Notes: generated by a model from the letters alone, not told the origin. 64,000 nucleotides of DNA from Escherichia coli (GCF_044324875.1 NZ_CP172185.1); one strand, 5' to 3'. Shown: positions 1,838-58,158, counted from the first letter of the stretch. Program-made: numbers and translations.

Positions 1838-3130
1838 TTATACGGTTTTATTGCGCTTCATGACCATTGCCACAATAAGGCTGAGTAAGATTGCACCAAT
1901 AATCCATATCAACGCACGGCTGCCCTGGGACCACAGGCTGTAGATAAAGCCAACGATCACCAACAACATCACCAACGTACCAACGATAAGAATCGGCAAC
2001 GAGGCGTGAATATCATGACGCAGGCGGATCGCCACCACAAACACCGCCAGATAGCAGATCAAAAAGGTGGCGCTGGCAACGCTGGCGAGTGAGCCTAAAT
2101 TCAGCGCCGCCGTCATCAGCATAATCAGCACCACGACAATGATGTTGCCCCAGGTACTCTGCCGCCACAGGGATTTATTCATTAGCTTCGGCAGTTCGCG
2201 TTCGCTGCCCATGTTGTCCATGATGTTAAACACGGCGAACAGGTTCGCGTTGATGGCTGAAGCCGTCGCCAGTAAAGCGCCGATGACGACGATCACATAA
2301 CCCACATGCCCGAGCAGCGGAGAAGCAGCCTGCGCTACGGCGGTATCGGCATATTTTTCTAACTCTAATGCCGATACATCGCTAAGCAAAACCAGCGCCA
2401 GCGAGATATAAAGCAACGTGGTAACGCCAATCGCCACCAGAAACGCCCGTGGCATAATGACCTGCGGATCTTTCACTTTATCCGCCGCGTTCGCCATCAT
2501 GCCAAAGCCCGCATAGGCAAGGAAGGTTATCCCGATACAGGAGAAGAACGCACCGGAGCTGGGGGGCGCAGAGACGGAAATATGCGCCGGTTGCAGCGAC
2601 CAGACACCGGCAATAATCAGCAATAACAGAATCATCATTTTAATGCCGACGAGGATCACTTCCAGCCGCCCTACCGCATGGTTGCTTAAGGAGTTGAAAA
2701 GCGTCATCACCGCAATGATTCCCAACGCGTAGAGCAAAATAAGGTGCTCCTCCTGGCTGCCTTCATGCAAAAACTGCACGGCATAAGCGCCAAAAGCACG
2801 GGCGACCATGGCGATGCTCACCGCCAGCGTCAACAGGTACAGTAACGAGAGCGCCAGCGAAAAGACGCCGTTGCCTAATCCGCGACGAAAGAAGTCGATA
2901 ATACCGCCATTGCTGGGATAGCTCGCCCCCAGGCGCGCATAGGCATAACCGGAAAACATCGCCACAATACCGCCAAAAGCAAAGGCGACCCAGGTCGAGG
3001 CTTCCATTAGCAACGCAGCCTGCCCCAGCAGCGCGAAGATCCCCGCCCCCACCATTGCCCCAATACCGATGGAAACGACGTTCCATAGACCGAGGGGTTT
3101 GTTATCGTTATTACCTTCCGTGTTCATCAT
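1838..3130 (-). CDS. ybaT: APC-family amino acid permease YbaT
   Basis: 430-aa polytopic membrane protein, synteny next to glsA as in E. coli. Confidence 0.9.
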   Translation of the reverse strand: MMNTEGNNDNKPLGLWNVVSIGIGAMVGAGIFALLGQAALLMEASTWVAFAFGGIVAMFSGYAYARLGASYPSNGGIIDFFRRGLGNGVFSLALSLLYLLTLAVSIAMVARAFGAYAVQFLHEGSQEEHLILLYALGIIAVMTLFNSLSNHAVGRLEVILVGIKMMILLLLIIAGVWSLQPAHISVSAPPSSGAFFSCIGITFLAYAGFGMMANAADKVKDPQVIMPRAFLVAIGVTTLLYISLALVLLSDVSALELEKYADTAVAQAASPLLGHVGYVIVVIGALLATASAINANLFAVFNIMDNMGSERELPKLMNKSLWRQSTWGNIIVVVLIMLMTAALNLGSLASVASATFLICYLAVFVVAIRLRHDIHASLPILIVGTLVMLLVIVGFIYSLWSQGSRALIWIIGAILLSLIVAMVMKRNKTV

Positions 3131-3132
3131 GA

Positions 3133-4065
3133 TCAGCCCTTAAACACGTTATAGCCGAGTTGCTTAGCGACCGATGCCACCATTTTTTGACCGCGAACAC
3201 TGTTGCCTTCTTCGTCCAGCGGTGGTGAGAACGCGGCAATTCCCATCACGCCAGGGACGACCGCCAGAATACCGCCACCTACACCGCTTTTGCCCGGTAA
3301 ACCAACGCGATACGCCCAGTCACCGGAGCGACCATACAGCCCTTCCATCATCATTTCAGCCAGAATGTACGGCACGTTGTCGGCCTGAAGAACGCGTTTA
3401 TGCGTCAGCGGATTCACACCACCCGCCGCCAGCGTCGCGCCAAGCGTTGCCAGTTCAACAGTATTGATGAGCGTGGAGCACTGACGGGTGTACACGTCAC
3501 AGGCTTCCATTGCATCACAATAGAGATATCCGGCGGAGTACAGCAGCCAGGCAATGGCCCGGTTATGGAAGTTGGTTGTTTGTTCCGACTGGTTTACTTC
3601 GTCAGAGAGCGCTACCTGCTCACCAGCCAGTTGTTGTTGGATATGTAAAATTCGCTGCCAGCGTTGTTCGGCATTTTCAGCGTTAATCAGGCTGGTGGTG
3701 GCAATAGCGCCAGCATTTACCAGTGGCGACAGCGGTTTGCCGCCATGCAACTCTAAGGCGATAACTGAGTTAAAGGGCAATCCGGTCGGGTCAGCGCCAA
3801 CTTTGTCCTGTACCGCCTGCGGGCCGACATCTTCTAACGCAAGGGCTAACGTACAGACTTTCGAGATGGATTCCAGCGCAAAGCGGTAATCACTCTCACC
3901 CGCGCGATAGATGTTGCCATCGCTGGTCACGATAGCCACTGCCGCCAGTTGACCAGGTACATTCGCCAGAAAGGGAATGTAGTCGGCATTTTGTCCGCCG
4001 TTAAGTGAGTGAAATTGGGTGTAAGCCTGATCCACTGCCTGCTGTAATTTGTTTGCATCTAACAT
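3133..4065 (-). CDS. glsA: Glutaminase 1
   Basis: 310-aa ORF; translation matches the glutaminase (YbaS/GlsA) family as recalled; synteny with ybaT. Confidence 0.92.
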   Translation of the reverse strand: MLDANKLQQAVDQAYTQFHSLNGGQNADYIPFLANVPGQLAAVAIVTSDGNIYRAGESDYRFALESISKVCTLALALEDVGPQAVQDKVGADPTGLPFNSVIALELHGGKPLSPLVNAGAIATTSLINAENAEQRWQRILHIQQQLAGEQVALSDEVNQSEQTTNFHNRAIAWLLYSAGYLYCDAMEACDVYTRQCSTLINTVELATLGATLAAGGVNPLTHKRVLQADNVPYILAEMMMEGLYGRSGDWAYRVGLPGKSGVGGGILAVVPGVMGIAAFSPPLDEEGNSVRGQKMVASVAKQLGYNVFKG

Positions 4066-7992: not shown

Positions 7993-8478
7993 TTAGCGGG
8001 AAGCGCCAACCGTAAGGCTGGCAATGATTTTTTCGGAGAGTGAGAGAGATTCGCGATGATTAAGACCAAGAGCAGCACAAGCTTTATTGCGCGCCGGGTT
8101 GTCCATGCATTCAAGCACCGGAGAGTCCTGCTTCTCAATTTCCACCAGTCGCGCCAGCAACACCTCCGTGCTGAGACCGTCGCTTTCAGTAATCAGGACG
8201 TTATAGCGATGAGCCTGTTCTTTTGCAGCCTGAGCGCGTCGCCCAAATTTCCAGGCGATATTGCAGCCACTAAGCACAGCCACGATACCACCCAGCAACC
8301 AACTGAAATTGCTGCCTGCAAACACAGTAGCCCCAGACGTAAGGATGACAGCATTAATCACCGTATCCATACGGCGGTTAAACACCTCCGAAATATGTTC
8401 AATCCAGTAACTGTTCCAGAGACGAAACATGACCTCGTGTCGCCGTTCGGCATGATTTTCAGTTGGTTGTCTGTTCAT
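7993..8478 (-). CDS. Two-transmembrane-helix small membrane protein (161 aa), oriented against the early operon
   Basis: Two adjacent hydrophobic helices (VINAVILTSGATVFAG; FSWLLGGIVAVLSGCNIAW) followed by a charged helical tail; opposite strand to every neighbouring early gene; 243-bp upstream region of its own. Confidence 0.6.
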   Translation of the reverse strand: MNRQPTENHAERRHEVMFRLWNSYWIEHISEVFNRRMDTVINAVILTSGATVFAGSNFSWLLGGIVAVLSGCNIAWKFGRRAQAAKEQAHRYNVLITESDGLSTEVLLARLVEIEKQDSPVLECMDNPARNKACAALGLNHRESLSLSEKIIASLTVGASR

Positions 8479-8721
8479 TGCGGTTTAACCCTCCTCATCA
8501 TCTCGCCCCTGCCCTTTTTCAGGCGCGGGAGCCGGTTGCCGTGGCACATGAAATTTATCGCTATCAGACATTTATTTTTTCCCGTGTGTTGTTGAACAAA
8601 GTGCCCGCACAGTTTTGACGGAACGGCGGGCGCTTCAAGCGTAACACACCCTTCTTTTCCGGTTGAAGGCGAAAAAAACCGGACAGCTACCCGACACAAA
8701 CCAGACCAGCGGAGAACTGCC

Positions 8722-9276
8722 ATGTACGCACTTAAACCTATGGGGATACCAGGCAAAGCCCCGGCGCATGTGAAAGCCTGGACACAGCAGGAAGATGATT
8801 TGCTGATCACCCTGTACCCGCAGCACACAGCACGAGATATCGCCGGACGTCTGGGGCGCAGCTACGAAGGAGTTTGCGGCCGCATTTCTCGTCTGCGTGA
8901 ACAGGGCAGGATTGGCATCAAGCAGCAAAGACTAAGCGATGAGATGATCGCCACGCTCATCAGGAACCGCCACACCAGGTCCCTCAAGGAACTGGCACAC
9001 ATGGCGAAAGTTTCGACACGCACGGTAACCAACCGATTGAGGGCGCTGGGCTACAGCCTGATCAAATGCGGGGATCTGCATAAAAACACCGTCTACAGCG
9101 ACCGCATCGTTGAGATTATCAGACAGTTACACGACGAGGAGGGCCTGACGTTCAGGGAAATCGCACAGCGCCTTAGCCACGAACTACAGCCGAACCCTAC
9201 CCCGACACTGGCTCAACGTCTCTACTGGCGGTGCACAGCATCCGACGCCGTATTCCGTGAACTGTTACCAGATTGA
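8722..9276 (+). CDS. Putative DNA-binding protein with three tandem helix-turn-helix-like repeats (184 aa)
   Basis: Three ~40-aa segments each with a similar pattern (e.g. ...ARDIAGRLGRSYEGVCGRISRL / ...LKELAHMAKVSTRTVTNRLRALG / ...FREIAQRLSHE). Confidence 0.5.
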   Translation: MYALKPMGIPGKAPAHVKAWTQQEDDLLITLYPQHTARDIAGRLGRSYEGVCGRISRLREQGRIGIKQQRLSDEMIATLIRNRHTRSLKELAHMAKVSTRTVTNRLRALGYSLIKCGDLHKNTVYSDRIVEIIRQLHDEEGLTFREIAQRLSHELQPNPTPTLAQRLYWRCTASDAVFRELLPD

Positions 9277-9394
9277 GCAATCACCATGTACACACAAAAA
9301 AACCGCTTGCAACAACAAACCGGAACAGGGTACGCTTCCCCCGCACCTCATAAAGCGGGTGCCGGGTTTCGCAGCCTGCTGACTAGCAAAGCGC

Positions 9395-9417
9395 ACAACC
9401 GCGCCAGCGGTTTTTTT
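9395..9417 (+). terminator. Intrinsic terminator-like hairpin plus T7 within the 320-bp non-coding stretch after the 8722..9276 gene
   Basis: aaccgc-gcca-gcggtt followed by ttttttt. Confidence 0.45.
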
Positions 9418-9596
9418 GTGCGTACTGTATTGCCACGTCTTTTTCGCACACGAATTATGGCGGGGCGTACGGGGCCGACTTCGGTCGGGCCGGGTTCTTT
9501 GCTAGCCGGTACTGCGAACCTCGTACGTCTCGCCACCCACAGTTTCGCAGCTCTGGATGGTGAGTTTTTAAAACTTACTAGCAAAGAGGCCACACC

Positions 9597-9815
9597 ATGG
9601 CAAACCGCAAACAGCGCCGCGCTACTGCGGAGCATCACCACGTCCGCGCCCAAATCGACAAACGCCTTTTCCGCGCATCACGCGTTGCACGCATCATGCA
9701 CATCAACATGCTGCATGAACGCAGAGGGGCACTACCGAACACCTATATCGCCTCCGTTTTCAGCTATCTGGCGGACGATCTCGCCGAGCTGCAACGCCTC
9801 ATTAACCAGCACTGA
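9597..9815 (+). CDS. Hypothetical protein (72 aa)
   Basis: ORF preceded by an AAGAGG Shine-Dalgarno at 9584..9589. Confidence 0.45.
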   Translation: MANRKQRRATAEHHHVRAQIDKRLFRASRVARIMHINMLHERRGALPNTYIASVFSYLADDLAELQRLINQH

Positions 9816-9887
9816 TAAACATCCCGAAGCCATCCTGCGCCCGTTCGCGGGAGGCTTCCACACATCTGTAGTCGGGAGGATTGCGCC

Positions 9888-10256
9888 ATGATTCTGGCTG
9901 ACGATTTTCTGGAGTACCTGAACAACACCGAGCGCGACCTGTACGCGCGCGTTCTCACCCGTTACGAGAAATACAAACTTTCACTGCCAGAGCATCAACT
10001 CCGCGAAGGCGATATCGACATTGAAGGGCGCTACATCGTCAGGCGCCGCATAGCGGGCTACGGCATCTGGCGTGTCACCGGACGTGAGCATTCATTGCTG
10101 ACCATCTGCCAGAGTCCGTCCGGCGTGATAACGGAGATCGTCGCCGATAGTCTGCGACTCACCCATCACAGCGCCACCCCGGAAGAAACGCTGGCAGAAA
10201 CCCAGCGTCTGTGTCGCGTCATTGCCAACGCCGCCCTCCGCGCAGACAGGAGGTAA
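9888..10256 (+). CDS. Hypothetical protein (122 aa) immediately upstream of gene A
   Basis: ORF in early operon orientation, ends 4 nt before the A start. Confidence 0.5.
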   Translation: MILADDFLEYLNNTERDLYARVLTRYEKYKLSLPEHQLREGDIDIEGRYIVRRRIAGYGIWRVTGREHSLLTICQSPSGVITEIVADSLRLTHHSATPEETLAETQRLCRVIANAALRADRR

Positions 10257-10259
10257 GCG

Positions 10260-12749
10260 ATGGAGTTCGTCAGAGACTGGCAAAAACCGCGCCCCGCTAT
10301 CGGGCGCGAAGGCTTACCCGTACCTGAAACCGCACTGGATACCATCCTGAAGTGTTACCGCGCAGACGAAGAGCGCGCACTGCACGCTGAAGAGCAGGGT
10401 CATCCGCTTGCGGGCACAACCATCGGTAACGCGATCGACAAGTGGGAAGGCGCACAGGAGCGCCAGGAAGAGGCCATCACGCTCACACAGGAAGCGAGAA
10501 GACACCCGCCCACCCTTATTGAGGAAACCCTCAAAGAGCTGGACACCCTGCCCAAGTGGTTGAGGCTGCCGCTGATTAAGCACCTGAACTTTTTAAGGCG
10601 CAAACAGGAGGACGAACAGCAGAAAGGCAAGCGCGGCAAGGACACCCGCAAATATGAGCGCTTCCTGAAAAACGGCATCCCCGCACGTCTTCGCCGTATT
10701 CGTGAGATTAACGCTCGCTTTGCACCGTTAAGTTTTCAGGCCGCTGCCATGCGCGAGAGTCTGGAAGAACTGATCACACTGCCGAACCTGAGCCGTGAAC
10801 GCATCCAGAAAATAGCCGTACTGCTTGCCAGCGCCGTTAAAATGCATCTTGCCGACGCAATGGACAAGGCCCGCGAAATAACAGGGAACGACAAAGACGA
10901 CAACCTGAACAACTGGCTGATTGCCTACCAGTATATTGGTCGCCGTGTCCTGAAGCTGGGGATCACCCCACCATACTGGAGCGCCCTTGAACTCCGCCCC
11001 GACCGCAGAAGCCCCCCGGACGTGACACTGGTTCCGGGCGCTGTTTTGCGCCTGAACGACGCCGAATGGTGGAATAAAAAACTTCGCCAGATGCACGACG
11101 TCTGGCGTGAGGAACTTTTACGTGCAGCGGGCCTTGTATCCCGCCAGACCTCCGTTTATGTGAGCCGTGAAGCGCTGGCAGACTTCCGCGAAAAACAGGC
11201 CCGTACCCGCGATTTTCTCAAAGCGCACGACGTGGAGAACGAAGACGGCGAACGCATCAGTCTGGAAGATATCTACTACGCCAGTACATCCAACCCGCAT
11301 AACCGCCGCAACGAGATGATGGCGTGCGTTAAGGGAATGGAGCTTATCGCACAGGAACGCGGCGACGTGGCCTTCTTCGTCACGGTCACAGCCCCGTCTC
11401 GTTTTCACAGCGTCACCGACGCAGGCACGCTGAACCCGAAATACAAAGGCGCAACCGTAAAGGACGCCAGCGACTATCTGGTTTATAACTTCTTCGCCTC
11501 CGCCCGCAAACTCATCAAAAAAGAGAAGCGGGGCTGGTACGGCATTCGCACCGTGGAGCCTCACCACGACGGCACGCCCCACTGGCACATGCTGGTATTC
11601 ACAAGCCCTGAGAACGAAGAGCGCATCACGGAAATCATGTGCAATGCCGCCATTCGCGAAGACCGGGCAGAGCTGGGCGACGACATCACCCCGCGCTTCA
11701 AGTGCGAGAAGATAGATCCCGAAAAAGGCACGCCAACCAGCTACATCGCCACCTACATAGGCAAAGGCATTGACGCCGCTGCATTCGGCGACACGGATCC
11801 AAAAACAGGTAAACCGCCCGTTGACCACGAAAGCGGAAAACCTATGGCGGACACCGTGGAAAACGCCGTCGCCTGGGCGCGCCTGCATCGCATTCGCCAG
11901 TTCCAGTTCTTTGGCCTCCCTTCCCGTCAGGTGTGGCGTGAGTTCCGCCGCCTTGCCGGACAAATGGCACGCAACCCGAAGGGGCCGCAGGCACTGACCA
12001 ACCCCAAAGCCGACGCCCTCCTTGTTGCAGCCGATACGGGGTGTTTTGCCAGCTACATCATGCATCAGGGCGGTGTGCTCATTCCCCGTAGTGAATATCT
12101 GGCCCGCACAGCCTACGTCACCGCAGAAGAGCCGAACAATTACAGCGAATTCCCCGAGCGCATTTACGGTATCCGCATGCCGGAACTGGGGGAGGACTTC
12201 ACGTTATGCACCCACCCGGAAGAGTGGAAAATCGTCAGAAAGGAACCGGAACCAGACAACCGCACGGGCGAGGGTTTTGACCTTCAGGGCGGCCCCGCCG
12301 CCCCTTGGACTCGTGGCAATAACTGTCACCCTGACGAAAAAACAACCAACAACAGCACACAAACCGGACAGTCAGAGTGGGCAAAACTGCCCCCCTTACC
12401 CCCATCGTCGGACGGTTTTGTGAGCTGGTTTAAGTCGCTTAAGAGGCCGGACAGGAAAAAACTACAAAGATTGCTCAAAAAACGCACCGAAGAGAGTCGC
12501 CAGAACGCCAGCGGCGGCACCGACACACCCACCGACACCATTAACCTGGGCGTTGTGCTGCCGGAACTGCCGGAAATCGTGCAAGTCCGCCGCGATCTGG
12601 AAGCGCTGGGCGCGGACTTCCCCGAAGCAATGGCCCATTCCGTCTTTATGGGTGCCCGCGTTCGTCTGGGTAACGGTCGCACCGTTCACCGCGACGAGCA
12701 GACCGGGCGCATCACCGTCACCAGTCTGCAACCGGAGGCGAAACCATGA
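10260..12749 (+). CDS. A: Replication initiation protein, P2 gene A family (rolling-circle endonuclease)
   Basis: 829 aa; contains an HUH-type metal-binding motif (HDGTPHWHMLVF) and a downstream tyrosine motif (SYIATYIGKG), as in rolling-circle initiators; position as for P2 A. Confidence 0.85.
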   Translation: MEFVRDWQKPRPAIGREGLPVPETALDTILKCYRADEERALHAEEQGHPLAGTTIGNAIDKWEGAQERQEEAITLTQEARRHPPTLIEETLKELDTLPKWLRLPLIKHLNFLRRKQEDEQQKGKRGKDTRKYERFLKNGIPARLRRIREINARFAPLSFQAAAMRESLEELITLPNLSRERIQKIAVLLASAVKMHLADAMDKAREITGNDKDDNLNNWLIAYQYIGRRVLKLGITPPYWSALELRPDRRSPPDVTLVPGAVLRLNDAEWWNKKLRQMHDVWREELLRAAGLVSRQTSVYVSREALADFREKQARTRDFLKAHDVENEDGERISLEDIYYASTSNPHNRRNEMMACVKGMELIAQERGDVAFFVTVTAPSRFHSVTDAGTLNPKYKGATVKDASDYLVYNFFASARKLIKKEKRGWYGIRTVEPHHDGTPHWHMLVFTSPENEERITEIMCNAAIREDRAELGDDITPRFKCEKIDPEKGTPTSYIATYIGKGIDAAAFGDTDPKTGKPPVDHESGKPMADTVENAVAWARLHRIRQFQFFGLPSRQVWREFRRLAGQMARNPKGPQALTNPKADALLVAADTGCFASYIMHQGGVLIPRSEYLARTAYVTAEEPNNYSEFPERIYGIRMPELGEDFTLCTHPEEWKIVRKEPEPDNRTGEGFDLQGGPAAPWTRGNNCHPDEKTTNNSTQTGQSEWAKLPPLPPSSDGFVSWFKSLKRPDRKKLQRLLKKRTEESRQNASGGTDTPTDTINLGVVLPELPEIVQVRRDLEALGADFPEAMAHSVFMGARVRLGNGRTVHRDEQTGRITVTSLQPEAKP

Positions 12750-13156: not shown

Positions 13157-13292
13157 AAAGAATCGCCGGAACCCACAGAGACACAAAAAGACACCAAAAG
13201 CAGCAAAGACACATTGAATAAACGAAAACTGGTGATATGATTTGTTCAAAGATGTTATGATTTATTCATAAGTAACCTTTCAGGCTTAAGTT

Positions 13293-13667
13293 ATGAATAA
13301 ACAGGATTTTGGACTTGATACCCTTTTGAGTATGCATGGTTACCAGCATCACATGGATAACGGGTACTGGTGGAAAATTGAGGCTTACCGGGTAAGTCCA
13401 AGTCCGTTCAGACCTCACGGGATACGCTACAATCTGACGTTACATGACCGCTACAATTCGCGTGTGTTTGGTATGGACAACGCACATGGAATAAAACCGC
13501 CAAAGAAGGGAAGATTTACAGGAAAGTTAACTGTTTATGATCATGTGCACCGTACCCCGGTGGATAAAGGTTATCCCTATGAGTTTGTATCCGCAGAACA
13601 ATTGTTATCTGATTTCTTTGATAACGTTGATCGGCTCATTAACGAAGTTACAAAGGGGAAAGCATGA
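13293..13667 (+). CDS. Hypothetical small protein (124 aa), first gene of an overlapping two-gene module in the A-to-Q cargo region
   Basis: ORF with own upstream promoter-like region (direct repeats atgatttgtt / atgatttatt); stop overlaps the next start (ATGA). H/Y/W-rich; no motif I can assign with confidence. Confidence 0.6.
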   Translation: MNKQDFGLDTLLSMHGYQHHMDNGYWWKIEAYRVSPSPFRPHGIRYNLTLHDRYNSRVFGMDNAHGIKPPKKGRFTGKLTVYDHVHRTPVDKGYPYEFVSAEQLLSDFFDNVDRLINEVTKGKA

Positions 13668-14050
13668 AAGCCCGCATCGGGATCATCCCGGAAAAAGTCC
13701 TGCGTCAGCGCCTGATTGAAATTGCCAAGGGGGAGCGGAAACCACACCCCGACGAGCCAAGGGTATGGTTTTCATCCATCAATGCGGCGGGTCAGGCGCT
13801 GAGCAATGAAAATATCTCCCTTCTTCGTCTTATGGATGAGGAGAAACCGCAGACCATGACCGAACTTGCGGAGTTATCCGGCAGAAAACTGAGTAACCTG
13901 TCTGTAACCCTGAAAATGCTGAGCAGCTACGGTTTTGTCAGTCTGGAAAAGAAAGGAAATACCGTACACCCGAAGGCACTTTTTACCGATTTTGAAATCA
14001 TCGTTGATCCGTCCGTCGGTTCAGTACATCGCGCCACCGCCCGCCCCTGA
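13664..14050 (+). CDS. Putative winged-helix DNA-binding protein (128 aa), second gene of the two-gene module
   Basis: Central MarR/winged-helix-like segment (MTELAELSGRKLSNLSVTLKMLSSYGFVSLEKKG); translationally coupled to 13293..13667. Confidence 0.6.
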   Translation: MKARIGIIPEKVLRQRLIEIAKGERKPHPDEPRVWFSSINAAGQALSNENISLLRLMDEEKPQTMTELAELSGRKLSNLSVTLKMLSSYGFVSLEKKGNTVHPKALFTDFEIIVDPSVGSVHRATARP

Positions 14051-14063
14051 AGTGTGCAATAAA

Positions 14064-14090
14064 CAGCCCCGGTCGGGGCTGTTTTTTATT
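14064..14090. terminator. Bidirectional intrinsic terminator between the converging 13664..14050 and 14086..14460 genes
   Basis: cagcccc-ggtc-ggggctg hairpin followed by ttttttatt. Confidence 0.6.
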
Positions 14091-14460
14091 CCAGAATCAG
14101 CTGTTCAGGTGTGCAGCCGTACAGTCTGGCAAGGCGCTCAATATTTGCCCTGCGCGGGCGTTCTGTTCTTTCGAATTCGGACACGGTAGCCTGCCTGATA
14201 CCCAGCGCATCCGCCACCTGCTTTTGCGTCATTCCGCGATAGATTCGCCACGCCGCCTGCATGGTGCAGCCACGTTCCGAGAGGATGTTGACCACCTCGT
14301 TGGGATACAGCGTATCAGGCGATGCACTCGGTTCGTTCTGGACGTCCTCGTAGAGTTCGTCAAGGTCGCTGTCTCCTGCCAGTTTTTCAAACAACGCCAC
14401 TGGCAGAATGACGGATACCCTGTTACCCGCACCGTCAGTAATAAACTGAATCTGACTCAT
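14086..14460 (-). CDS. XRE-family helix-turn-helix protein (124 aa), candidate antitoxin
   Basis: C-terminal HTH_XRE-like segment (MTQKQVADALGIRQATVSEFERTERPRRANIERLARLYG); downstream of and co-oriented with a RelE/ParE-like ORF. Confidence 0.6.
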   Translation of the reverse strand: MSQIQFITDGAGNRVSVILPVALFEKLAGDSDLDELYEDVQNEPSASPDTLYPNEVVNILSERGCTMQAAWRIYRGMTQKQVADALGIRQATVSEFERTERPRRANIERLARLYGCTPEQLILE

Positions 14461-14533
14461 TTGCCCCTCCTGCTAAACATCGGTTTATTTTTTAATTTGC
14501 TGCCGGTGATAAAAAACGGCGGGTCGCCCCGCC

Positions 14534-14806
14534 TTAGTATGTTGTCGAGGTTCTCCGCTGAATACGGAGGATCCTGATAACCACTATCTGCCCTCCCTCA
14601 ATCGTGAACCTGACACGGTAATGATTTACCCTGAGTCTGTACTCCCCGCCCGAGTCAGTGAGCTTTTTAATATCCAGATTCTGGAACTTCGGATAGCCAT
14701 AAAGCGCGTTAACTTTCTCGCGTAAGGATTTCTGATCCCTCGCTGGCAAAACCCGTAAATCTTTGATTGCCCGAGGGGTCCACATGATTTCAGTCGTCAT
14801 AAACAC
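14534..14806 (-). CDS. RelE/ParE-superfamily toxin-like protein (about 88-90 aa; start GTG 14806 or ATG 14800)
   Basis: N-terminal ...WTPRAIKDLRVL... and C-terminal YRLRVNHYRVRF...IVVIRI segments resemble RelE/ParE/HigB-type toxins. Confidence 0.6.
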   Translation of the reverse strand: MFMTTEIMWTPRAIKDLRVLPARDQKSLREKVNALYGYPKFQNLDIKKLTDSGGEYRLRVNHYRVRFTIEGGQIVVIRILRIQRRTSTTY

Positions 14807-14851
14807 ACCGGAAGCAAATTATTAAAGAGCCGTGCCCGCTGGCACACCTTA

Positions 14852-42273: not shown

Positions 42274-43068
42274 ATGGATCTGTTGTACCGGGTAAAAACG
42301 CTTTGGGCCGCGCTGCGCGGTAATCATTACACCTGGCCTGCTATCGATATCTCTCTTCCCGGCAATCGCCATTTTCATCTGATTGGCAGTATTCATATGG
42401 GTAGCCACGATATGGCTCCCCTGCCCACCCGTTTGCTCAAAAAGCTCAAAAACGCCGATGCGCTGATCGTCGAGGCGGATGTTTCCACCAGCGATACGCC
42501 TTTTGCTAATTTGCCTGCCTGCGAGGCGCTGGAAGAGCGCATTAGCGAGGAGCAACTCCAAAATCTGCAGCACATTAGCCAGGAGATGGGCATTTCTACC
42601 TCACTCTTTTCTACCCAACCGCTGTGGCAAATCGCGATGGTTCTTCAGGCGACGCAGGCACAAAAACTGGGGCTGCGGGCAGAATACGGTATCGATTACC
42701 AGCTATTGCAGGCGGCGAAGCAACAACATAAACCCGTGATTGAACTGGAAGGGGCTGAAAACCAGATTGCCATGTTGCTCCAGCTCCCTGACAAAGGACT
42801 GGCGCTGCTGGACGATACGCTGACCCACTGGCACACCAATGCACGGTTGCTGCAACAAATGATGAGCTGGTGGCTGAATGCGCCGCCGCAAAATAATGAA
42901 ATAACGCTGCGTAATACGTTCAGTCAATCGCTGTACGATGTGCTGATGCATCAGCGAAATCTCGCCTGGCGGGACAAATTATGCGCCATGCCGCCGGGGC
43001 GCTATGTGGTCGCAGTCGGTGCACTACACCTGTATGGAGAAGGGAATTTGCCGCAGATGTTGCGCTAA
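42274..43068 (+). CDS. ybaP: TraB-family protein YbaP
   Basis: 264 aa, synteny between copA and ybaK. Confidence 0.85.
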   Translation: MDLLYRVKTLWAALRGNHYTWPAIDISLPGNRHFHLIGSIHMGSHDMAPLPTRLLKKLKNADALIVEADVSTSDTPFANLPACEALEERISEEQLQNLQHISQEMGISTSLFSTQPLWQIAMVLQATQAQKLGLRAEYGIDYQLLQAAKQQHKPVIELEGAENQIAMLLQLPDKGLALLDDTLTHWHTNARLLQQMMSWWLNAPPQNNEITLRNTFSQSLYDVLMHQRNLAWRDKLCAMPPGRYVVAVGALHLYGEGNLPQMLR

Positions 43069-43256
43069 AAAAATGGCCAATATCGCTATTGGCCCGTCAA
43101 AGAGGAATTTCATATTTTTATTATTATGCCGTCACTTTAAGCGACGGTGTAACTCGATTGTCGCTCAATCTCACCATCCTGCCAATACTCTTAGGCAAGA
43201 TGACTCTTTTTTTTGGACCGCCATCAGGCGTATGCTTGCTTCGTTTTTTTGTTTAA

Positions 43257-48826: not shown

Positions 48827-48910
48827 GTAGGCATGATAAGACGCGCCAGCGTCGCATCAGGCATTGAGAGCAAAATGCCAGATGCGGCGTGAACGCCTTA
48901 TCTGGCCTAC
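48827..48910. repeat. BIME / REP elements (two inverted REP units)
   Basis: gtaggcatgataagacgcgccagcgtcgcatcaggc and gccagatgcggcgtgaacgccttatctggcctac match REP consensus types. Confidence 0.8.
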
Positions 48911-56226: not shown

Positions 56227-58158
56227 TCAAATGGGGCGGATACTTTCTTCATCCAGCTCCGCATCGAAGAATCGACGCAGGGTCTGAATATTATTATCCG
56301 CAATAATGGACTCGCGCGCCTGCGCAAGTTTTTCTTCGTATATCGCCTGACGCCATTCCAGCGGCGTACGCACCGCGGGATTATCATCTTCAACGATAGT
56401 CAGTTCAACCGTTGAACCTTTTAACGTGCTCAACGCTTCAGCCAGTTTTTGCTGTGCGCCGCGGTTGTTCAAATGCCGCTGAGAGGAGCGCAAATGCAGA
56501 CATACTGCGTTGTCGCTCTCCTCTTTCCAGGCATTTAACGCCACCTGTTCGACCAGTTTTGGTAGCGAAAGTTGACTCACCTGAGCCGCCCACGGGTCGC
56601 GCTCAATGGCTTCTGCCGCCAGCTTCGCCGCCAGTTCCGGCGTTTTTTCATGTTCCAGCGCTTTTTTTAGCGCCTTCGGCGTGGCGACCACTTCTTTTTG
56701 CTGCATCACTGGAGTGGTAGCCTTCCAGCGATACGCTTCTTTTTTGGCTGGCGCTTTTTCCAGCGCCGATGGCACCGGACGCGCCTGAACGCGATCGGTG
56801 ACCGAAGCCAGTCTTTCCAGCGCAGCGTTATTCACCGGCCGCGCGCGGGTAGCGGCTGCCGGTTCACTCTTTTTTGCTTTGGTTGCTCCCTGCACGCGCT
56901 GCAACTGCTGGCGCGCCGCCAGCACCTGGCTGGTGGTTTCCGGGAGCGGTACAGTCGGTGCCTGCTGCGGCGCTGATTGCGGTTGTGGCGGCACCTGGGT
57001 TGGCGTCATTACTGCCGTTGGCGCAACGAGCGCAAAGGACTGGCGTGGCACTTCTGGCTCAGGCAGAGGCATACGCGGATGGAACGCCAGCGCGCGCAGC
57101 AGCGTCATCTCAACACCCATACGGCGGTCTGGCGCATACGGTAATTCTTTGCGACCAATCAACAGCGTCTGATAGTAAAGCTGAATATCCGTCGGCGGTA
57201 TGGTGCGCGCCAGTTCACGCATCCGCAGCTCAATGGCGGCCATGTCGTTGCCAAGAGCAGCAGGCGAAAGTTGTACCATCGCAATACGATGCAACAGACC
57301 GAGCATTTCCACCAGCAACGCTTCCCACTCGATACCACGGGCAGCAGCTTCATTAATTAGCGCCATTACGCGCTCGCCGTTGGCCTCGACCATCGCTTCA
57401 ACCAGCGATAACGCCTGATCGTCGTCAAGCGTACCCAGCATCGCACTGACCGCCTGGGTTGAAACCTGGCCGTCACCGCTGGCAATCGCCTGGTCGGTCA
57501 GACTTAAGGCATCTCGCAGGCTGCCTTCAGCGGCGCGTGCCAACAATTGCAGCGCCCGCGGCTCGTGAGCGATATGTTCTTCGTTGAGGATGTGCTCAAG
57601 CTGATGGCGAATTTGCTCGACATCCAGCGCCTTGAGATGAAATTGCAGACAGCGTGACAAAATCGTCACCGGCAATTTCTGCGGATCGGTCGTCGCCAGC
57701 AAAAACTTAACGTGCTCTGGCGGCTCTTCAAGGGTTTTTAACAGTGCGTTAAAGCTGTGACGCGACAGCATATGCACTTCGTCGATGAGATAAACTTTGA
57801 AACGACCACGCGCCGGAGCGTACTGGACGTTATCCAGCAGGTCGCGAGTGTCTTCAACTTTAGTGCGCGAGGCGGCGTCGATTTCAATCAGATCGACAAA
57901 GCGCCCCTGCTCGATTTCACGACAATTATCGCACACGCCGCACGGCGTCGCGGTAATGCCGGTTTCGCAGTTTAGCCCCTTCGCCAGCAGTCGGGCGATA
58001 GAGGTTTTTCCGACGCCACGGGTACCGGAAAAAAGATAAGCATGATGAATACGCCCTAACGACAAGCCGTTCGCCAGTGCGGTCAGCACATGTTCCTGGC
58101 CGACGACGTCAGCAAAGGTTTGTGGGCGCCATTTTCGGGCTAAGACCTGATAACTCAT
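56227..58158 (-). CDS. dnaX: DNA polymerase III tau subunit (gamma produced by frameshifting)
   Basis: 643 aa with AAA+ motifs; contains the A AAA AAG slippery site. Confidence 0.97.
   Translation of the reverse strand: MSYQVLARKWRPQTFADVVGQEHVLTALANGLSLGRIHHAYLFSGTRGVGKTSIARLLAKGLNCETGITATPCGVCDNCREIEQGRFVDLIEIDAASRTKVEDTRDLLDNVQYAPARGRFKVYLIDEVHMLSRHSFNALLKTLEEPPEHVKFLLATTDPQKLPVTILSRCLQFHLKALDVEQIRHQLEHILNEEHIAHEPRALQLLARAAEGSLRDALSLTDQAIASGDGQVSTQAVSAMLGTLDDDQALSLVEAMVEANGERVMALINEAAARGIEWEALLVEMLGLLHRIAMVQLSPAALGNDMAAIELRMRELARTIPPTDIQLYYQTLLIGRKELPYAPDRRMGVEMTLLRALAFHPRMPLPEPEVPRQSFALVAPTAVMTPTQVPPQPQSAPQQAPTVPLPETTSQVLAARQQLQRVQGATKAKKSEPAAATRARPVNNAALERLASVTDRVQARPVPSALEKAPAKKEAYRWKATTPVMQQKEVVATPKALKKALEHEKTPELAAKLAAEAIERDPWAAQVSQLSLPKLVEQVALNAWKEESDNAVCLHLRSSQRHLNNRGAQQKLAEALSTLKGSTVELTIVEDDNPAVRTPLEWRQAIYEEKLAQARESIIADNNIQTLRRFFDAELDEESIRPI
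56869..56875 (-). promoter_or_regulatory. dnaX programmed -1 frameshift heptamer A AAA AAG (tau/gamma)
   Basis: Plus-strand ctttttt at 56869..56875 = minus aaaaaag within ...GCA AAA AAG AGU GAA..., encoding the ...AKKSE... region of tau. Confidence 0.85.

What the first reader, a model, noticed from the sequence alone, without database searches (positions are those of the whole stretch)
9277..9596. 320-bp ORF-poor structured segment inside the early operon
The listed 201-aa ORF here has implausible composition and no ribosome binding site. The segment instead contains an intrinsic terminator (9395..9417), a hairpin with a TTCG tetraloop (about 9463..9490) and a 9-bp long-range inverted repeat (ctagcaaag at 9383..9391 versus ctttgctag at 9497..9505). 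Consistent with a small RNA or a regulated attenuator upstream of the replication genes.
Basis: seen in the sequence. Interest (0 to 1): 0.4.

Follow-up and report, generated by a model that had tools for sequence, protein, structure and literature searches.

The report
Phage antisense-RNA immunity module (isrK + C4)
The "ORF-poor structured segment" is a well-known phage regulatory cassette of two small RNAs (isrK/seqA and C4/CI). Here it sits in a P2-like E. coli prophage, where the antisense RNA is predicted to mask the ribosome-binding site of an anti-repressor-like gene just upstream of the replication gene.

Summary
The thing itself is already a known kind.

- **Identity:** C4 antisense RNA (RF01695) is at 9453-9540 and contains the TTCG hairpin.
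- **The 9-nt inverted repeat:** it is the C4 loop (a') against its upstream target in isrK. A second 7-nt element (b') also has two targets.
- **Co-variation:** the recognition sequences differ across the modules compared (P88-type prophages, P4, lambdoid phages, Gifsy-1), and both targets co-vary with them.
- **Layout:** this is the P4 seqA/CI/seqC and P1 a1b1/c4/a2b2 arrangement, placed before epsilon-like, ORF122 and gpA in a P88-type (Xuanwuvirus) prophage.
- **Mechanism (inferred):** constitutive C4 blocks translation of ORF72 and, by polarity, expression of the downstream replication genes.
- **Open point:** the "Ash" reading frame running through the RNAs stays open in most homologues and ends at the ATGA start of ORF122. 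This resembles the translated orf45 of Gifsy-1.

The parts
9307..9336 (+). Candidate promoter of the module (P_isrK, aligned with the presumed P4 PLE hexamers): -35 TTGCAA 9307-9312, 18-nt spacer, -10 TACGCT 9331-9336, predicted start near 9343
   Evidence: The block GCTTGCC...GGTTACATT / TATAGT is conserved in 9 aligned modules including P4. Read from the sequence. The simple sigma-70 scan did not call it. Inferred, not shown.
9343..9417 (+). isrK / seqA-like / a1b1 small RNA: hairpin 1 (9343-9362); hairpin 2 with b1 TTCGCAG (9368-9374) in its loop; single-stranded a1 CTAGCAAAG (9383-9391); intrinsic terminator (stem 9397-9412, T-run to 9417)
   Evidence: Rfam RF01394 at 64.7 bits, gathering score 50. 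Terminator scan. RF03163 c4-a1b1 gives a weak match at 9330-9382 (23.3 bits, below its gathering score).
9453..9540 (+). C4 / CI-type antisense RNA (predicted mature RNA about 9459-9537): outer stem 9458-9474/9519-9535; UUCG hairpin 9475-9488; hairpin 2 9489-9510 with a' UCUUUGCUAG (9496-9505) in its loop; single-stranded b' CUGCGAA (9512-9518)
   Evidence: Rfam RF01695 at 82.8 bits, gathering score 45. z = -4.35. 99.5% of cells paired and 11 of 27 pairs with compensatory changes in 8 sequences.
9544..9550 (+). b2 target (TTCGCAG), complementary to b'
   Evidence: Co-varies with b' in all modules.
9578..9589 (+). a2 target CTAGCAAAGA (9578-9587) overlapping the Shine-Dalgarno AAGAGG (9584-9589) of ORF72
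   Evidence: 10 Watson-Crick pairs with a'. The same position relative to SD and ATG is seen in the P88-type, P4 and lambdoid modules, and by eye in Gifsy-1.
9597..9815 (+). ORF72, the predicted regulated gene: homologue of the P4 epsilon (helper derepression) protein
   Evidence: BLASTP against P4 epsilon: 30% identity, E 1e-8. Pfam PF25738 Derepression at 26.8 bits, gathering score 27. P88 orthologue annotated 'derepression protein'. Third-codon-position excess of substitutions.
9457..9891 (+). Leader ('Ash'/orf45-type) reading frame starting at the AUG in the 5' base of C4. It runs +1 over ORF72 and stops at the TGA of the ATGA start of ORF122. Status uncertain.
   Evidence: The equivalent Gifsy-1 orf45 has the same AUG and an ATGA junction and is reported as translated and coupled (PMC4825925).
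9888..12749 (+). Downstream genes presumably subject to polarity: ORF122 (9888-10256) and the P2 gpA-type replication endonuclease (10260-12749)
   Evidence: Pfam PF05840 Phage_GPA, E 4.9e-102. PGAP annotation of the identical E. coli Ch1 prophage.

Best explanation
The segment is an RNA-based immunity and attenuation cassette of the P4 (seqA-CI-seqC) and P1/P7 immI (a1b1-c4-a2b2) type. It is carried inside the early operon of a P88-type P2-like prophage.

The proposed sequence of events is as follows.
- A promoter at about 9307-9336 starts a transcript near 9343.
- Many transcripts stop at the intrinsic terminator (to 9417), which gives the roughly 75-nt isrK/seqA-like RNA.
- Read-through transcripts carry the C4 RNA. 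This RNA is probably cut out by RNase P and trimmed at the 3' end, as in P1 and P4, to about 79 nt (9459-9537).
- The C4 loop a' and the single-stranded b' pair with b2/a2 (9544-9550 and 9578-9588) on nascent or unprocessed leaders, covering the Shine-Dalgarno of ORF72.
- This blocks translation of the epsilon-like anti-repressor candidate. By loss of translation-transcription coupling (Rho-dependent polarity in P1 and P4), it also limits expression of ORF122 and the replication gene gpA.
- The upstream b1/a1 pair in isrK is a second target or decoy for the same RNA.
- The variable a'/b' sequences set the specificity (heteroimmunity) of each phage.

Shown here: family membership, RNA structure, three-way co-variation, the position of a2 on the SD, and gene content. 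Inferred by homology: promoter activity, processing, translational block, polarity, and the anti-repressor activity of ORF72.
For: - Both Rfam matches are well above their gathering scores.
- The same isrK+C4 pair is found in P88, P4 (where the C4 match is the CI RNA and the isrK match is seqA), mEp460 and ST64B, and in Gifsy-1.
- C4 structure: 99.5% of cells paired, 11 of 27 pairs with double changes, slid controls 34-44%; z = -4.35.
- Intermolecular co-variation: 14 P88-type modules carry 9 a' and 6 b' alleles. In each, both upstream and downstream sites stay complementary, and the same holds in P4, mEp460 and ST64B.
- In the 12 modules with the standard 12-nt loop, own-allele matches are 30-32 of 32. 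Cross-allele matches average 21.1, with a maximum of 26 (n=168).
- a2 abuts or overlaps the SD in the modules, and by eye in Gifsy-1.
- A conserved promoter block aligns with the P4 leader promoter region.
- ORF72 is homologous to P4 epsilon.
- Literature: IsrK is called a structural homologue of P4 SeqA, and CI RNA acts on seqA/seqC to terminate transcription (PMC4825925). IsrK and C4 are equated with seqA and CI (PMC3632133). c4 blocks the ant RBS (PMC12197685). IsrK and STnc1160 are highly expressed in lysogens (10.1101/787010).
Against: - There are no expression data for this prophage.
- The -10 hexamer here (TACGCT) is weaker than in relatives (TACATT), and the simple promoter scan did not call it.
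- In Gifsy-1 the experimentally shown role of short IsrK is activation, not repression, of the downstream gene, so the sign of isrK's contribution is uncertain.
- ORF72 falls 0.2 bits below the Pfam gathering score, and its target repressor is unknown.
- Rho dependence cannot be read from the sequence.
- The module lies inside an operon also fed by the upstream early promoter, so its role during lytic growth is not defined.
Confidence: 0.85

Rival explanations
1. Gifsy-1-type positive switch. The read-through leader folds into a translationally silent structure. [quoted passage not shown] This allows translation of the leader ORF that starts at the AUG in C4 (9457), and that ORF is translationally coupled through its ATGA stop-start to ORF122 and gpA. 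On this reading the cassette is mainly an inducer of lytic functions. It can coexist with C4-mediated repression.
For: - The Gifsy-1 locus has the same anatomy. orf45 starts at the AUG at C4 position 5 and ends in an ATGA with anrP.
- Activation and coupling were shown experimentally there (PMC4825925).
- In the window the same frame is open from 9457 to the ATGA of ORF122 (9888-9891), and this holds in 12 of 14 P88-type modules.
- The chance of an open +1 frame over ORF72 is 0.05-0.3 per sequence.
Against: - The frame is broken in the UTI89 and E. albertii modules, whose RNA features are intact.
- There is no SD before 9457.
- P4 and P1 genetics assign repression to the C4/CI RNA (own knowledge of Citron & Schuster 1990 and Sabbattini et al. 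1995).
- The lineages compared are not independent.
Confidence: 0.3
2. The segment encodes a real protein, the 'Ash family protein' (ORF201 at 9286-9891, or a shorter version), and the RNA-like features are incidental.
For: - The frame is open in all 8 modules first examined and in 12 of 14 P88-type modules.
- PGAP annotates 'ash family protein' over the module in some genomes.
- Pfam PF10554 gives a weak match at 23.4 bits, gathering score 26.
Against: - PF10554 matches exactly the translation of isrK+C4+a2 in P4 and mEp460, so the family itself looks like a conceptual translation of the RNA genes.
- Compensatory stem changes and freely varying a'/b' segments change the 'protein'.
- Over ORF72 the most variable position is the third codon position of the epsilon frame, which is the second position of the ORF201 frame.
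- The frame is interrupted in two intact modules.
- There is no SD at 9286.
- For orf45, Hershko-Shalev et al. (as summarised in PMC12197685) report conserved nucleotides but variable amino acids.
Confidence: 0.05
3. A plain intrinsic terminator plus fortuitous hairpins that merely separates two blocks of early genes, with no trans-acting RNA.
For: A canonical terminator is present, and the segment lies between gene blocks that recombine as mosaics.
Against: - Two curated RNA families score far above threshold.
- The three-way co-variation of recognition sequences cannot be explained by a terminator.
- The module is conserved as a unit with its promoter in 1738 of 5426 complete E. coli genomes and in unrelated phage types.
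Confidence: 0.03
4. The cassette serves mainly in inter-element conflict. The helper-type prophage makes a P4-type immunity RNA to silence P4-like satellites, or competing phages, that carry matching seqA/seqC sites. This is the idea raised by Barquist et al. 2013 for lambdoid prophages.
For: - The helper-family phage and its satellite P4 share the cassette and an epsilon homologue.
- The hypothesis is stated in PMC3632133.
- High allele diversity is consistent with an arms race or heteroimmunity.
Against: - None of the 9 P88-type a' alleles equals that of P4.
- Every module carries perfectly matched targets in its own leader, so self-regulation suffices.
- No satellite with the window's allele was looked for or found.
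Confidence: 0.1

Closest known systems
Satellite phage P4 immunity region (PLE - seqA - CI RNA/seqB - seqC - kil/eta - epsilon - orf151 - alpha)
   Same: - Same two RNA families in the same order: Rfam isrK matches seqA at L003 8615-8692, and C4 matches the CI RNA at 8420-8507.
- An aligned leader promoter block.
- Two targets flanking the RNA, with the downstream one on the SD of the first ORF.
- An epsilon homologue and then the replication gene downstream.
   Different: - Here epsilon-like is the first gene after the RNA; there is no kil/eta.
- The replication protein is a P2 gpA-type HUH endonuclease, not the alpha primase-helicase.
- The isrK-to-C4 spacer is 35 nt here against 107 nt in P4.
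- The host element is a complete P2-like phage that also has a protein C repressor. In P4, by contrast, the RNA is the only immunity factor (own knowledge).
P1/P7 immI: a1b1 - c4 antisense RNA - a2b2 - icd - ant
   Same: - Member of the same Rfam family (RF01695), which P1 and P7 c4 define.
- Loop and linker recognition elements a'/b' with an upstream and a downstream target pair.
- The downstream pair covers the RBS of the first ORF.
- It controls an anti-repressor-type function alongside a protein repressor.
   Different: - The regulated gene is epsilon-like rather than icd/ant, and replication genes follow it.
- The upstream target region scores as isrK (with its own terminator) rather than as c4-a1b1, which reaches only 23.3 bits against a gathering score of 46.7.
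- The P1 locus was not fetched here; the comparison of anatomy rests on the literature and on Rfam.
Salmonella Gifsy-1 isrK - orf45/STnc1160 - anrP locus (Hershko-Shalev et al. 2016)
   Same: isrK with promoter and terminator, a C4-like RNA directly downstream (60 bits with my model), a2 on the SD of an anti-repressor-like gene, and a leader ORF from the AUG in C4 that ends in an ATGA junction.
   Different: - Gifsy-1 is lambdoid and the module lies downstream of antQ, not before replication genes.
- The Gifsy-1 leader ORF has 45 codons and couples to the first gene. Here it has 144 codons, overlaps ORF72 out of frame and meets the second gene.
- The Gifsy-1 a' loop is shorter.
Lambdoid isrK-C4-Rha/anti-repressor modules (mEp460, ST64B, Stx2 phages)
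   Same: About 70-73% nucleotide identity over isrK+C4, with the same architecture and offsets.
   Different: - The downstream gene is a Rha-family regulator fused in frame to the leader frame.
- The position is between cro/cII-like genes and the replication genes of a lambdoid phage.

Membership tests
Rfam RF01695 C4 antisense RNA (P1 c4 / P4 CI) | Covariance-model score above the curated gathering score over the full model | tested here: met
   82.8 bits against 45, model positions 1-87 of 87, E 9e-15
Rfam RF01695 C4 antisense RNA (P1 c4 / P4 CI) | Long closing stem enclosing two hairpins, supported by compensatory changes | tested here: met
   27 pairs, 99.5% of cells paired, 11 pairs with double changes, slid controls 34-44%. 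MFE equals this structure, z = -4.35. The alignment was fitted to the model, which favours the structure.
Rfam RF01695 C4 antisense RNA (P1 c4 / P4 CI) | Two exposed recognition elements (a' in the loop, b' in the linker), each complementary to a site upstream and a site downstream in the same transcript | tested here: met
   a' 9496-9505 against 9383-9391 and 9578-9587; b' 9512-9518 against 9368-9374 and 9544-9550. These co-vary in the 14 P88-type, P4 and two lambdoid modules tested; the Gifsy-1 sites were checked by eye and are only partly matched.
Rfam RF01695 C4 antisense RNA (P1 c4 / P4 CI) | Downstream target overlaps the ribosome-binding site of the first ORF | tested here: met
   a2 at 9578-9587 overlaps SD AAGAGG at 9584-9589; ATG at 9597
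Rfam RF01695 C4 antisense RNA (P1 c4 / P4 CI) | Excised from a longer precursor by RNase P (5' end) with 3' trimming; acts in trans as a repressor | not testable with these tools
   Only the tRNA-like closing stem followed by ACC (9536-9538) is visible. The processing claim rests on the P1 and P4 literature (own knowledge; PMC3632133).
Rfam RF01394 isrK (= P4 seqA region) | Covariance-model score above the gathering score; two 5' hairpins plus a Rho-independent terminator | tested here: met
   64.7 bits against 50, model positions 1-77 of 77. Terminator stem at 9397-9412 plus T7. Thermodynamic z-score alone is not significant, at -0.18.
Rfam RF01394 isrK (= P4 seqA region) | Own promoter immediately upstream | tested here: inconclusive
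   A conserved -35/-10 block aligns with the P4 leader promoter region, but the -10 here is TACGCT and the simple scan did not report it.
Rfam RF01394 isrK (= P4 seqA region) | Hfq binding; trans-activation of the leader (Gifsy-1) | not testable with these tools
   Experimental properties reported in PMC4825925
P4-type RNA immunity controlling the replication operon | Order promoter - seqA - CI - seqC - early genes - replication gene on one strand | tested here: met
   9307-9336, 9343-9417, 9453-9540, 9544-9588, ORF72, ORF122, gpA at 10260-12749. The same order holds in P88, Shae_phiSM and 6 E. coli prophages.
P4-type RNA immunity controlling the replication operon | CI-dependent premature (Rho-dependent) transcription termination | not testable with these tools
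   Needs in vivo transcripts with and without C4 and with and without bicyclomycin.
Pfam PF25738 Derepression protein (P4 epsilon) for ORF72 | Profile score at or above the gathering score; pairwise homology to P4 epsilon | tested here: inconclusive
   26.8 bits against gathering score 27, while BLASTP against P4 epsilon gives 30% identity over 66 aa, E 1e-8. No NCBIfam hit.
Pfam PF10554 Phage_ASH for ORF201 | Profile score at or above the gathering score and evidence of protein-level selection | tested here: not met
   23.4 bits against 26. The family maps onto the RNA genes in P4 and mEp460. The substitution pattern and two broken frames argue against coding.

The most novel reading that the evidence does not exclude
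In P88-type P2-like phages, the conserved AUG at the 5' base of C4 may open a long leader ORF of 144-149 codons. This ORF runs out of frame across the epsilon-like gene and stops exactly on the ATGA start of the next gene. Translating it, on unprocessed leaders or on lytic transcripts coming from the early promoter, would melt C4 and bypass the antisense block. It would also deliver ribosomes directly to ORF122 and gpA. One RNA cassette would then give two separately gated outputs: the anti-repressor through the a2/SD block, and replication through leader-ORF coupling. This would extend the Gifsy-1 orf45-anrP coupling mechanism to an overlapping-gene arrangement in helper-type phages.
Probability: 0.2. 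Interest if true: 0.5.

Novelty: new member of a known kind. Interest (0 to 1): 0.25.

Why it matters
It matters mainly for annotation and for phage biology housekeeping.
- The cassette is present in about a third of complete E. coli genomes (1738 of 5426).
- In RefSeq it is left unannotated or is called an 'ash family protein' or part of a 'Rha' gene.
- P88-type P2-like prophages carry, next to their protein C repressor, a P4/P1-type RNA immunity module in front of an epsilon-like gene and the replication gene. This points to a two-layer immunity like that of P1.
- It also gives a concrete evolutionary link between satellite P4 and its helper family.
- The many a'/b' alleles predict a heteroimmunity system that can be tested.

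None of this changes current concepts, because the mechanism class has been known since the early 1990s.

Tried and rejected
- **tRNA or tmRNA:** ARAGORN found none in the window.
- **Minus-strand gene:** the 101-aa ORF at 9348-9653(-) has no family hit. The minus strand of C4 folds much worse, and the terminator and Rfam matches are all on the plus strand.
- **Promoter-like site at 9430-9458 as a C4 promoter:** this is TTGCCA-17-AATTAT, the only hit of the scan. I do not favour it, because a start 5-9 nt downstream would remove the 5' strand of the C4 stem. The block is conserved in P88-type modules and remains unexplained.
- **LexA box:** I looked by eye near 9277-9343 and 9418-9452. Only a half-site (TACTGTAT at 9420-9427) is present, so this was not pursued.
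- **Collecting more modules from IMG/VR by DNA pattern:** 51 loci were returned and only one (L059) contains a C4-like RNA. The rest are chance matches.
- **Peptide-based scans:** Diversity was therefore taken from E. coli RefSeq genomes and phage records instead.
- **NCBIfam:** no names for ORF72, ORF122, ORF184 or ORF201.
- **Sabbattini et al. 1995 (P4 target sites):** this paper is not held. P4 and P1 mechanistic details therefore rest on secondary citations and on my own knowledge.
- the automatic extraction of a' failed for P4, so the P4 values come.

Full report
**1. What is in the sequence**

The segment 9277-9596 lies between a 184-aa multi-HTH ORF (8722-9276) and a 72-aa ORF (9597-9815). 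A 122-aa ORF and an 829-aa P2 gpA-type replication endonuclease follow.

The window is identical here to the chromosome of E. coli strain Ch1. There the region belongs to a prophage inserted next to glsA, with the layout integrase, HTH repressor, early genes, replication endonuclease. The nearest named phages are P88 and other Xuanwuvirus (Peduoviridae, P2-like) phages, which share the block 9285-9811 at 83-86% identity.

- The terminator has its stem at 9397-9412 and a T-run to 9417.
- The TTCG hairpin is at 9475-9488.
- The exact 9-nt inverted repeat is at 9383-9391 and 9497-9505.

**2. Identity**

A scan of the whole window against Rfam at curated thresholds gives two adjacent plus-strand matches inside the segment (alignments).
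- isrK (RF01394) at 9343-9417: 64.7 bits against a gathering score of 50.
- C4 antisense RNA (RF01695) at 9453-9540: 82.8 bits against 45, full length.

The TTCG hairpin is the first inner hairpin of C4. The inverted repeat is the loop of the second C4 hairpin against a single-stranded stretch of isrK.

C4 folds into the Rfam structure as its minimum-energy structure (-47.2 kcal/mol, z = -4.35, 0 of 200 shuffles). The opposite strand folds far worse.

On eight homologues the 27 pairs are 99.5% paired, and 11 pairs show changes on both sides. Slid controls are 34-44% paired. That alignment was fitted to the model, which favours the structure.

**3. The pairing scheme and its co-variation**

It lies on the Shine-Dalgarno AAGAGG (9584-9589) of the ATG at 9597.

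There is also a second element. CUGCGAA in the single-stranded linker of C4 (9512-9518) is complementary to TTCGCAG at 9368-9374, in the loop of isrK hairpin 2, and at 9544-9550.

The layout is therefore b1-a1 / a'-b' / b2-a2. This is the a1b1-c4-a2b2 scheme of P1/P7 and the seqA-seqB(CI)-seqC scheme of P4.

I tested it by comparison.
- The same isrK+C4 pair is found by Rfam in P88, P4, mEp460 and ST64B. In P4 the C4 match is the CI RNA and the isrK match is the seqA region.
- My own model finds it in Gifsy-1 and in 12 further P88-type loci.
- The recognition sequences differ between elements: 9 a' and 6 b' alleles among the 14 P88-type modules alone.
- In every element both the upstream and the downstream sites have changed in step.
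- In the 12 modules with the standard loop, own-allele matches are 30-32 of 32 positions. Combinations of one element's RNA with another element's targets average 21.1, with a maximum of 26 (n=168).
- a2 abuts the SD in the P88-type, P4 and lambdoid modules analysed, and by eye in Gifsy-1.

This is strong comparative evidence for RNA-RNA recognition, and it excludes chance.

**4. Surroundings**

A conserved block upstream of isrK (GCTTGCC... 17-18 nt ...TACATT) aligns with a -35/-10-like block (CTTGCC / TATAGT) upstream of seqA in P4, which I take to be PLE. In the window it reads TTGCAA (9307-9312) and TACGCT (9331-9336), which places a start near the first base of the isrK match. This is inferred, and the simple promoter scan did not call it.

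ORF72 is a homologue of P4 epsilon, the protein with which P4 derepresses its P2 helper.
- BLASTP gives 30% identity, E 1e-8.
- Pfam Derepression gives 26.8 bits against a gathering score of 27.
- The P88 orthologue is annotated 'derepression protein'.

The order isrK - C4 - epsilon-like - small ORF - gpA is conserved in P88, the Citrobacter phage Shae_phiSM and six E. coli prophages. One of those six has a truncated gpA and no annotated small ORF.

**5. How it most likely works**

The following is by homology with P4 and P1. I could read the primary papers only through secondary citations, and the rest is my own knowledge of Citron & Schuster 1990, Biere et al. 1992, Sabbattini et al. 1995 and Forti et al. 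1995-2002.

The module promoter is active in the lysogen. Most transcripts end at the isrK terminator. Read-through transcripts yield C4 after RNase P cleavage and 3' trimming.

C4 pairs through a' and b' with b2/a2. This occludes the SD of ORF72. The untranslated leader is then prone to premature, Rho-dependent termination, which keeps epsilon-like, ORF122 and gpA silent.

The upstream pair in isrK is a second target or decoy. In homologous Salmonella prophages, IsrK and the downstream STnc1160 RNA are abundant in lysogens under all conditions tested.

- **Shown here:** family membership, structure, co-varying complementarity, SD overlap, and gene content.
- **Inferred:** promoter activity, processing, repression, polarity, and the activity of ORF72.

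**6. The rival that matters**

In Gifsy-1 the short IsrK RNA activates the downstream genes. It opens a silent leader and allows translation of 'orf45', which is coupled to the anti-repressor-like anrP.

I mapped that locus. orf45 starts at the AUG at position 5 of the C4-like RNA and ends in an ATGA with the anrP start.

The window has the same AUG at 9457.
- The frame is open in all 8 modules first examined.
- It is fused in frame to the downstream gene in P4, mEp460 and ST64B.
- In 12 of 14 P88-type modules it runs +1 across the epsilon-like gene and the 63-72-nt spacer, whose length is always a multiple of three. It stops exactly on the ATGA start of the next gene (9888-9891 here).
- The chance of an open +1 frame over ORF72 is 0.05-0.3 per sequence under three null models. 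The lineages are related, so I do not claim significance.

Several points argue against a real 'Ash' protein.
- The frame is interrupted in the UTI89 and E. albertii modules, whose RNA features are intact.
- Over ORF72 the substitutions concentrate on the third position of the epsilon frame: 34 variable columns against 21 and 21.
- Pfam Phage_ASH maps precisely onto isrK+C4+a2 in P4 and mEp460.

I therefore treat the frame as, at most, a translated leader of the orf45 type and not as a protein gene. I leave it as the main unexplained point.

**7. Comparison with what is known, and novelty**

The equivalence of IsrK with seqA and of C4 with CI is already stated in the literature, as is the presence of such modules in P4-like, P1, P7, N15 and lambdoid prophages (PMC3632133; PMC4825925).

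I found no paper describing the module in P88-type or other P2-like phages.

RefSeq leaves the module unannotated or calls it 'ash family protein'. In lambdoid records it is swallowed by a long 'Rha' CDS.

It is very common. The 320-bp segment itself occurs in 1124 of 5426 complete E. coli genomes at 80% identity or more. A module of some type occurs in 1738 genomes, upstream of derepression-protein, Rha-family or Icd-like genes.

The finding is thus a new, unannotated member of a well-known kind. Its moderately interesting features are its placement in a helper-type phage, directly before an epsilon homologue and gpA, and the long out-of-frame leader ORF.

**8. Verdict**

- **Observation:** confirmed.
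supported.
- **Identity:** isrK/seqA plus a C4/CI antisense-RNA immunity cassette, confidence about 0.85.
- **Novelty:** new member of a known kind.
- **Interest:** 0.25.

Noticed in passing
window 9286-9891; L003 (P4) 8168-8584(-); L004 (mEp460) 2141-3292; L067 1451-2068: Pfam PF10554 'Ash protein family' matches the conceptual translation of exactly the isrK+C4+a2 stretch: P4 old 'cI' ORF 59.7 bits, mEp460 'Rha' residues 117-213 57.4 bits, window ORF201 23.4 bits. The family, and the PGAP name 'ash family protein', therefore seem to describe translated RNA genes or at most a leader peptide.
   Followed up: yes
window 9457-9891, and the same frame in L002, L045-L047, L060-L068, L003-L005, L069: The frame of the AUG at C4 position 5 stays open in most modules. 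In P88-type phages it ends on the ATGA start of the gene after epsilon-like. In Gifsy-1 (orf45) it ends on the ATGA of anrP. In P4 and the lambdoids it is fused in frame to the next gene. It is broken in 2 of 14 P88-type modules.
   Followed up: partly
window 9816-9887 (hairpin 9826-9858): The 72-nt spacer between ORF72 and ORF122 is highly conserved. Its length is always a multiple of 3 (63 or 72). It holds a stable hairpin (GAAGCC...GGCUUC around a CCCG-UUCG-CGGG core; z = -2.47) whose outer stem differs between homologues while remaining paired by eye. A second small hairpin holds the SD of ORF122. Function unknown.
   Followed up: partly
window 8722-9286: The upstream 184-aa ORF, with three weak HTH-like repeats by Pfam, is in the same reading frame as ORF201. 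They are separated by a single TGA (9274-9276) and three codons. This ORF is not part of the block shared with P88, and PGAP splits it into two small ORFs in strain Ch1.
   Followed up: no
window 9418-9458: The 35-nt spacer between the isrK terminator and C4 is conserved in P88-type modules. It contains the only sigma-70-like match of the region (TTGCCA-17-AATTAT), whose predicted start would fall inside the C4 stem. It also contains a LexA half-site-like TACTGTAT (9420-9427).
   Followed up: no
window 56830-56894(-), 43067-43150(-), 48830-48907(-): Other Rfam matches at curated thresholds: the dnaX frameshift element, sroB sRNA and naRNA4. These are ordinary E. coli chromosomal features outside the prophage.
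   Followed up: no
window about 13290-14810 (L001 9542-11034): Directly after gpA the prophage carries cargo annotated by PGAP as a DUF6516 protein plus transcriptional regulator, and an HTH protein plus RelE-family toxin on the opposite strand. P88 has parM/partition genes at this position instead, so this is a mosaic cargo slot.
   Followed up: no
L060 (contig JAIJJM010000372.1): A 3.2-kb contig labelled as a Collinsella sp. MAG carries a typical E. coli-type P88 module (C4 at 848-935, epsilon-like 70% identical). This is probably a binning contaminant.
   Followed up: no
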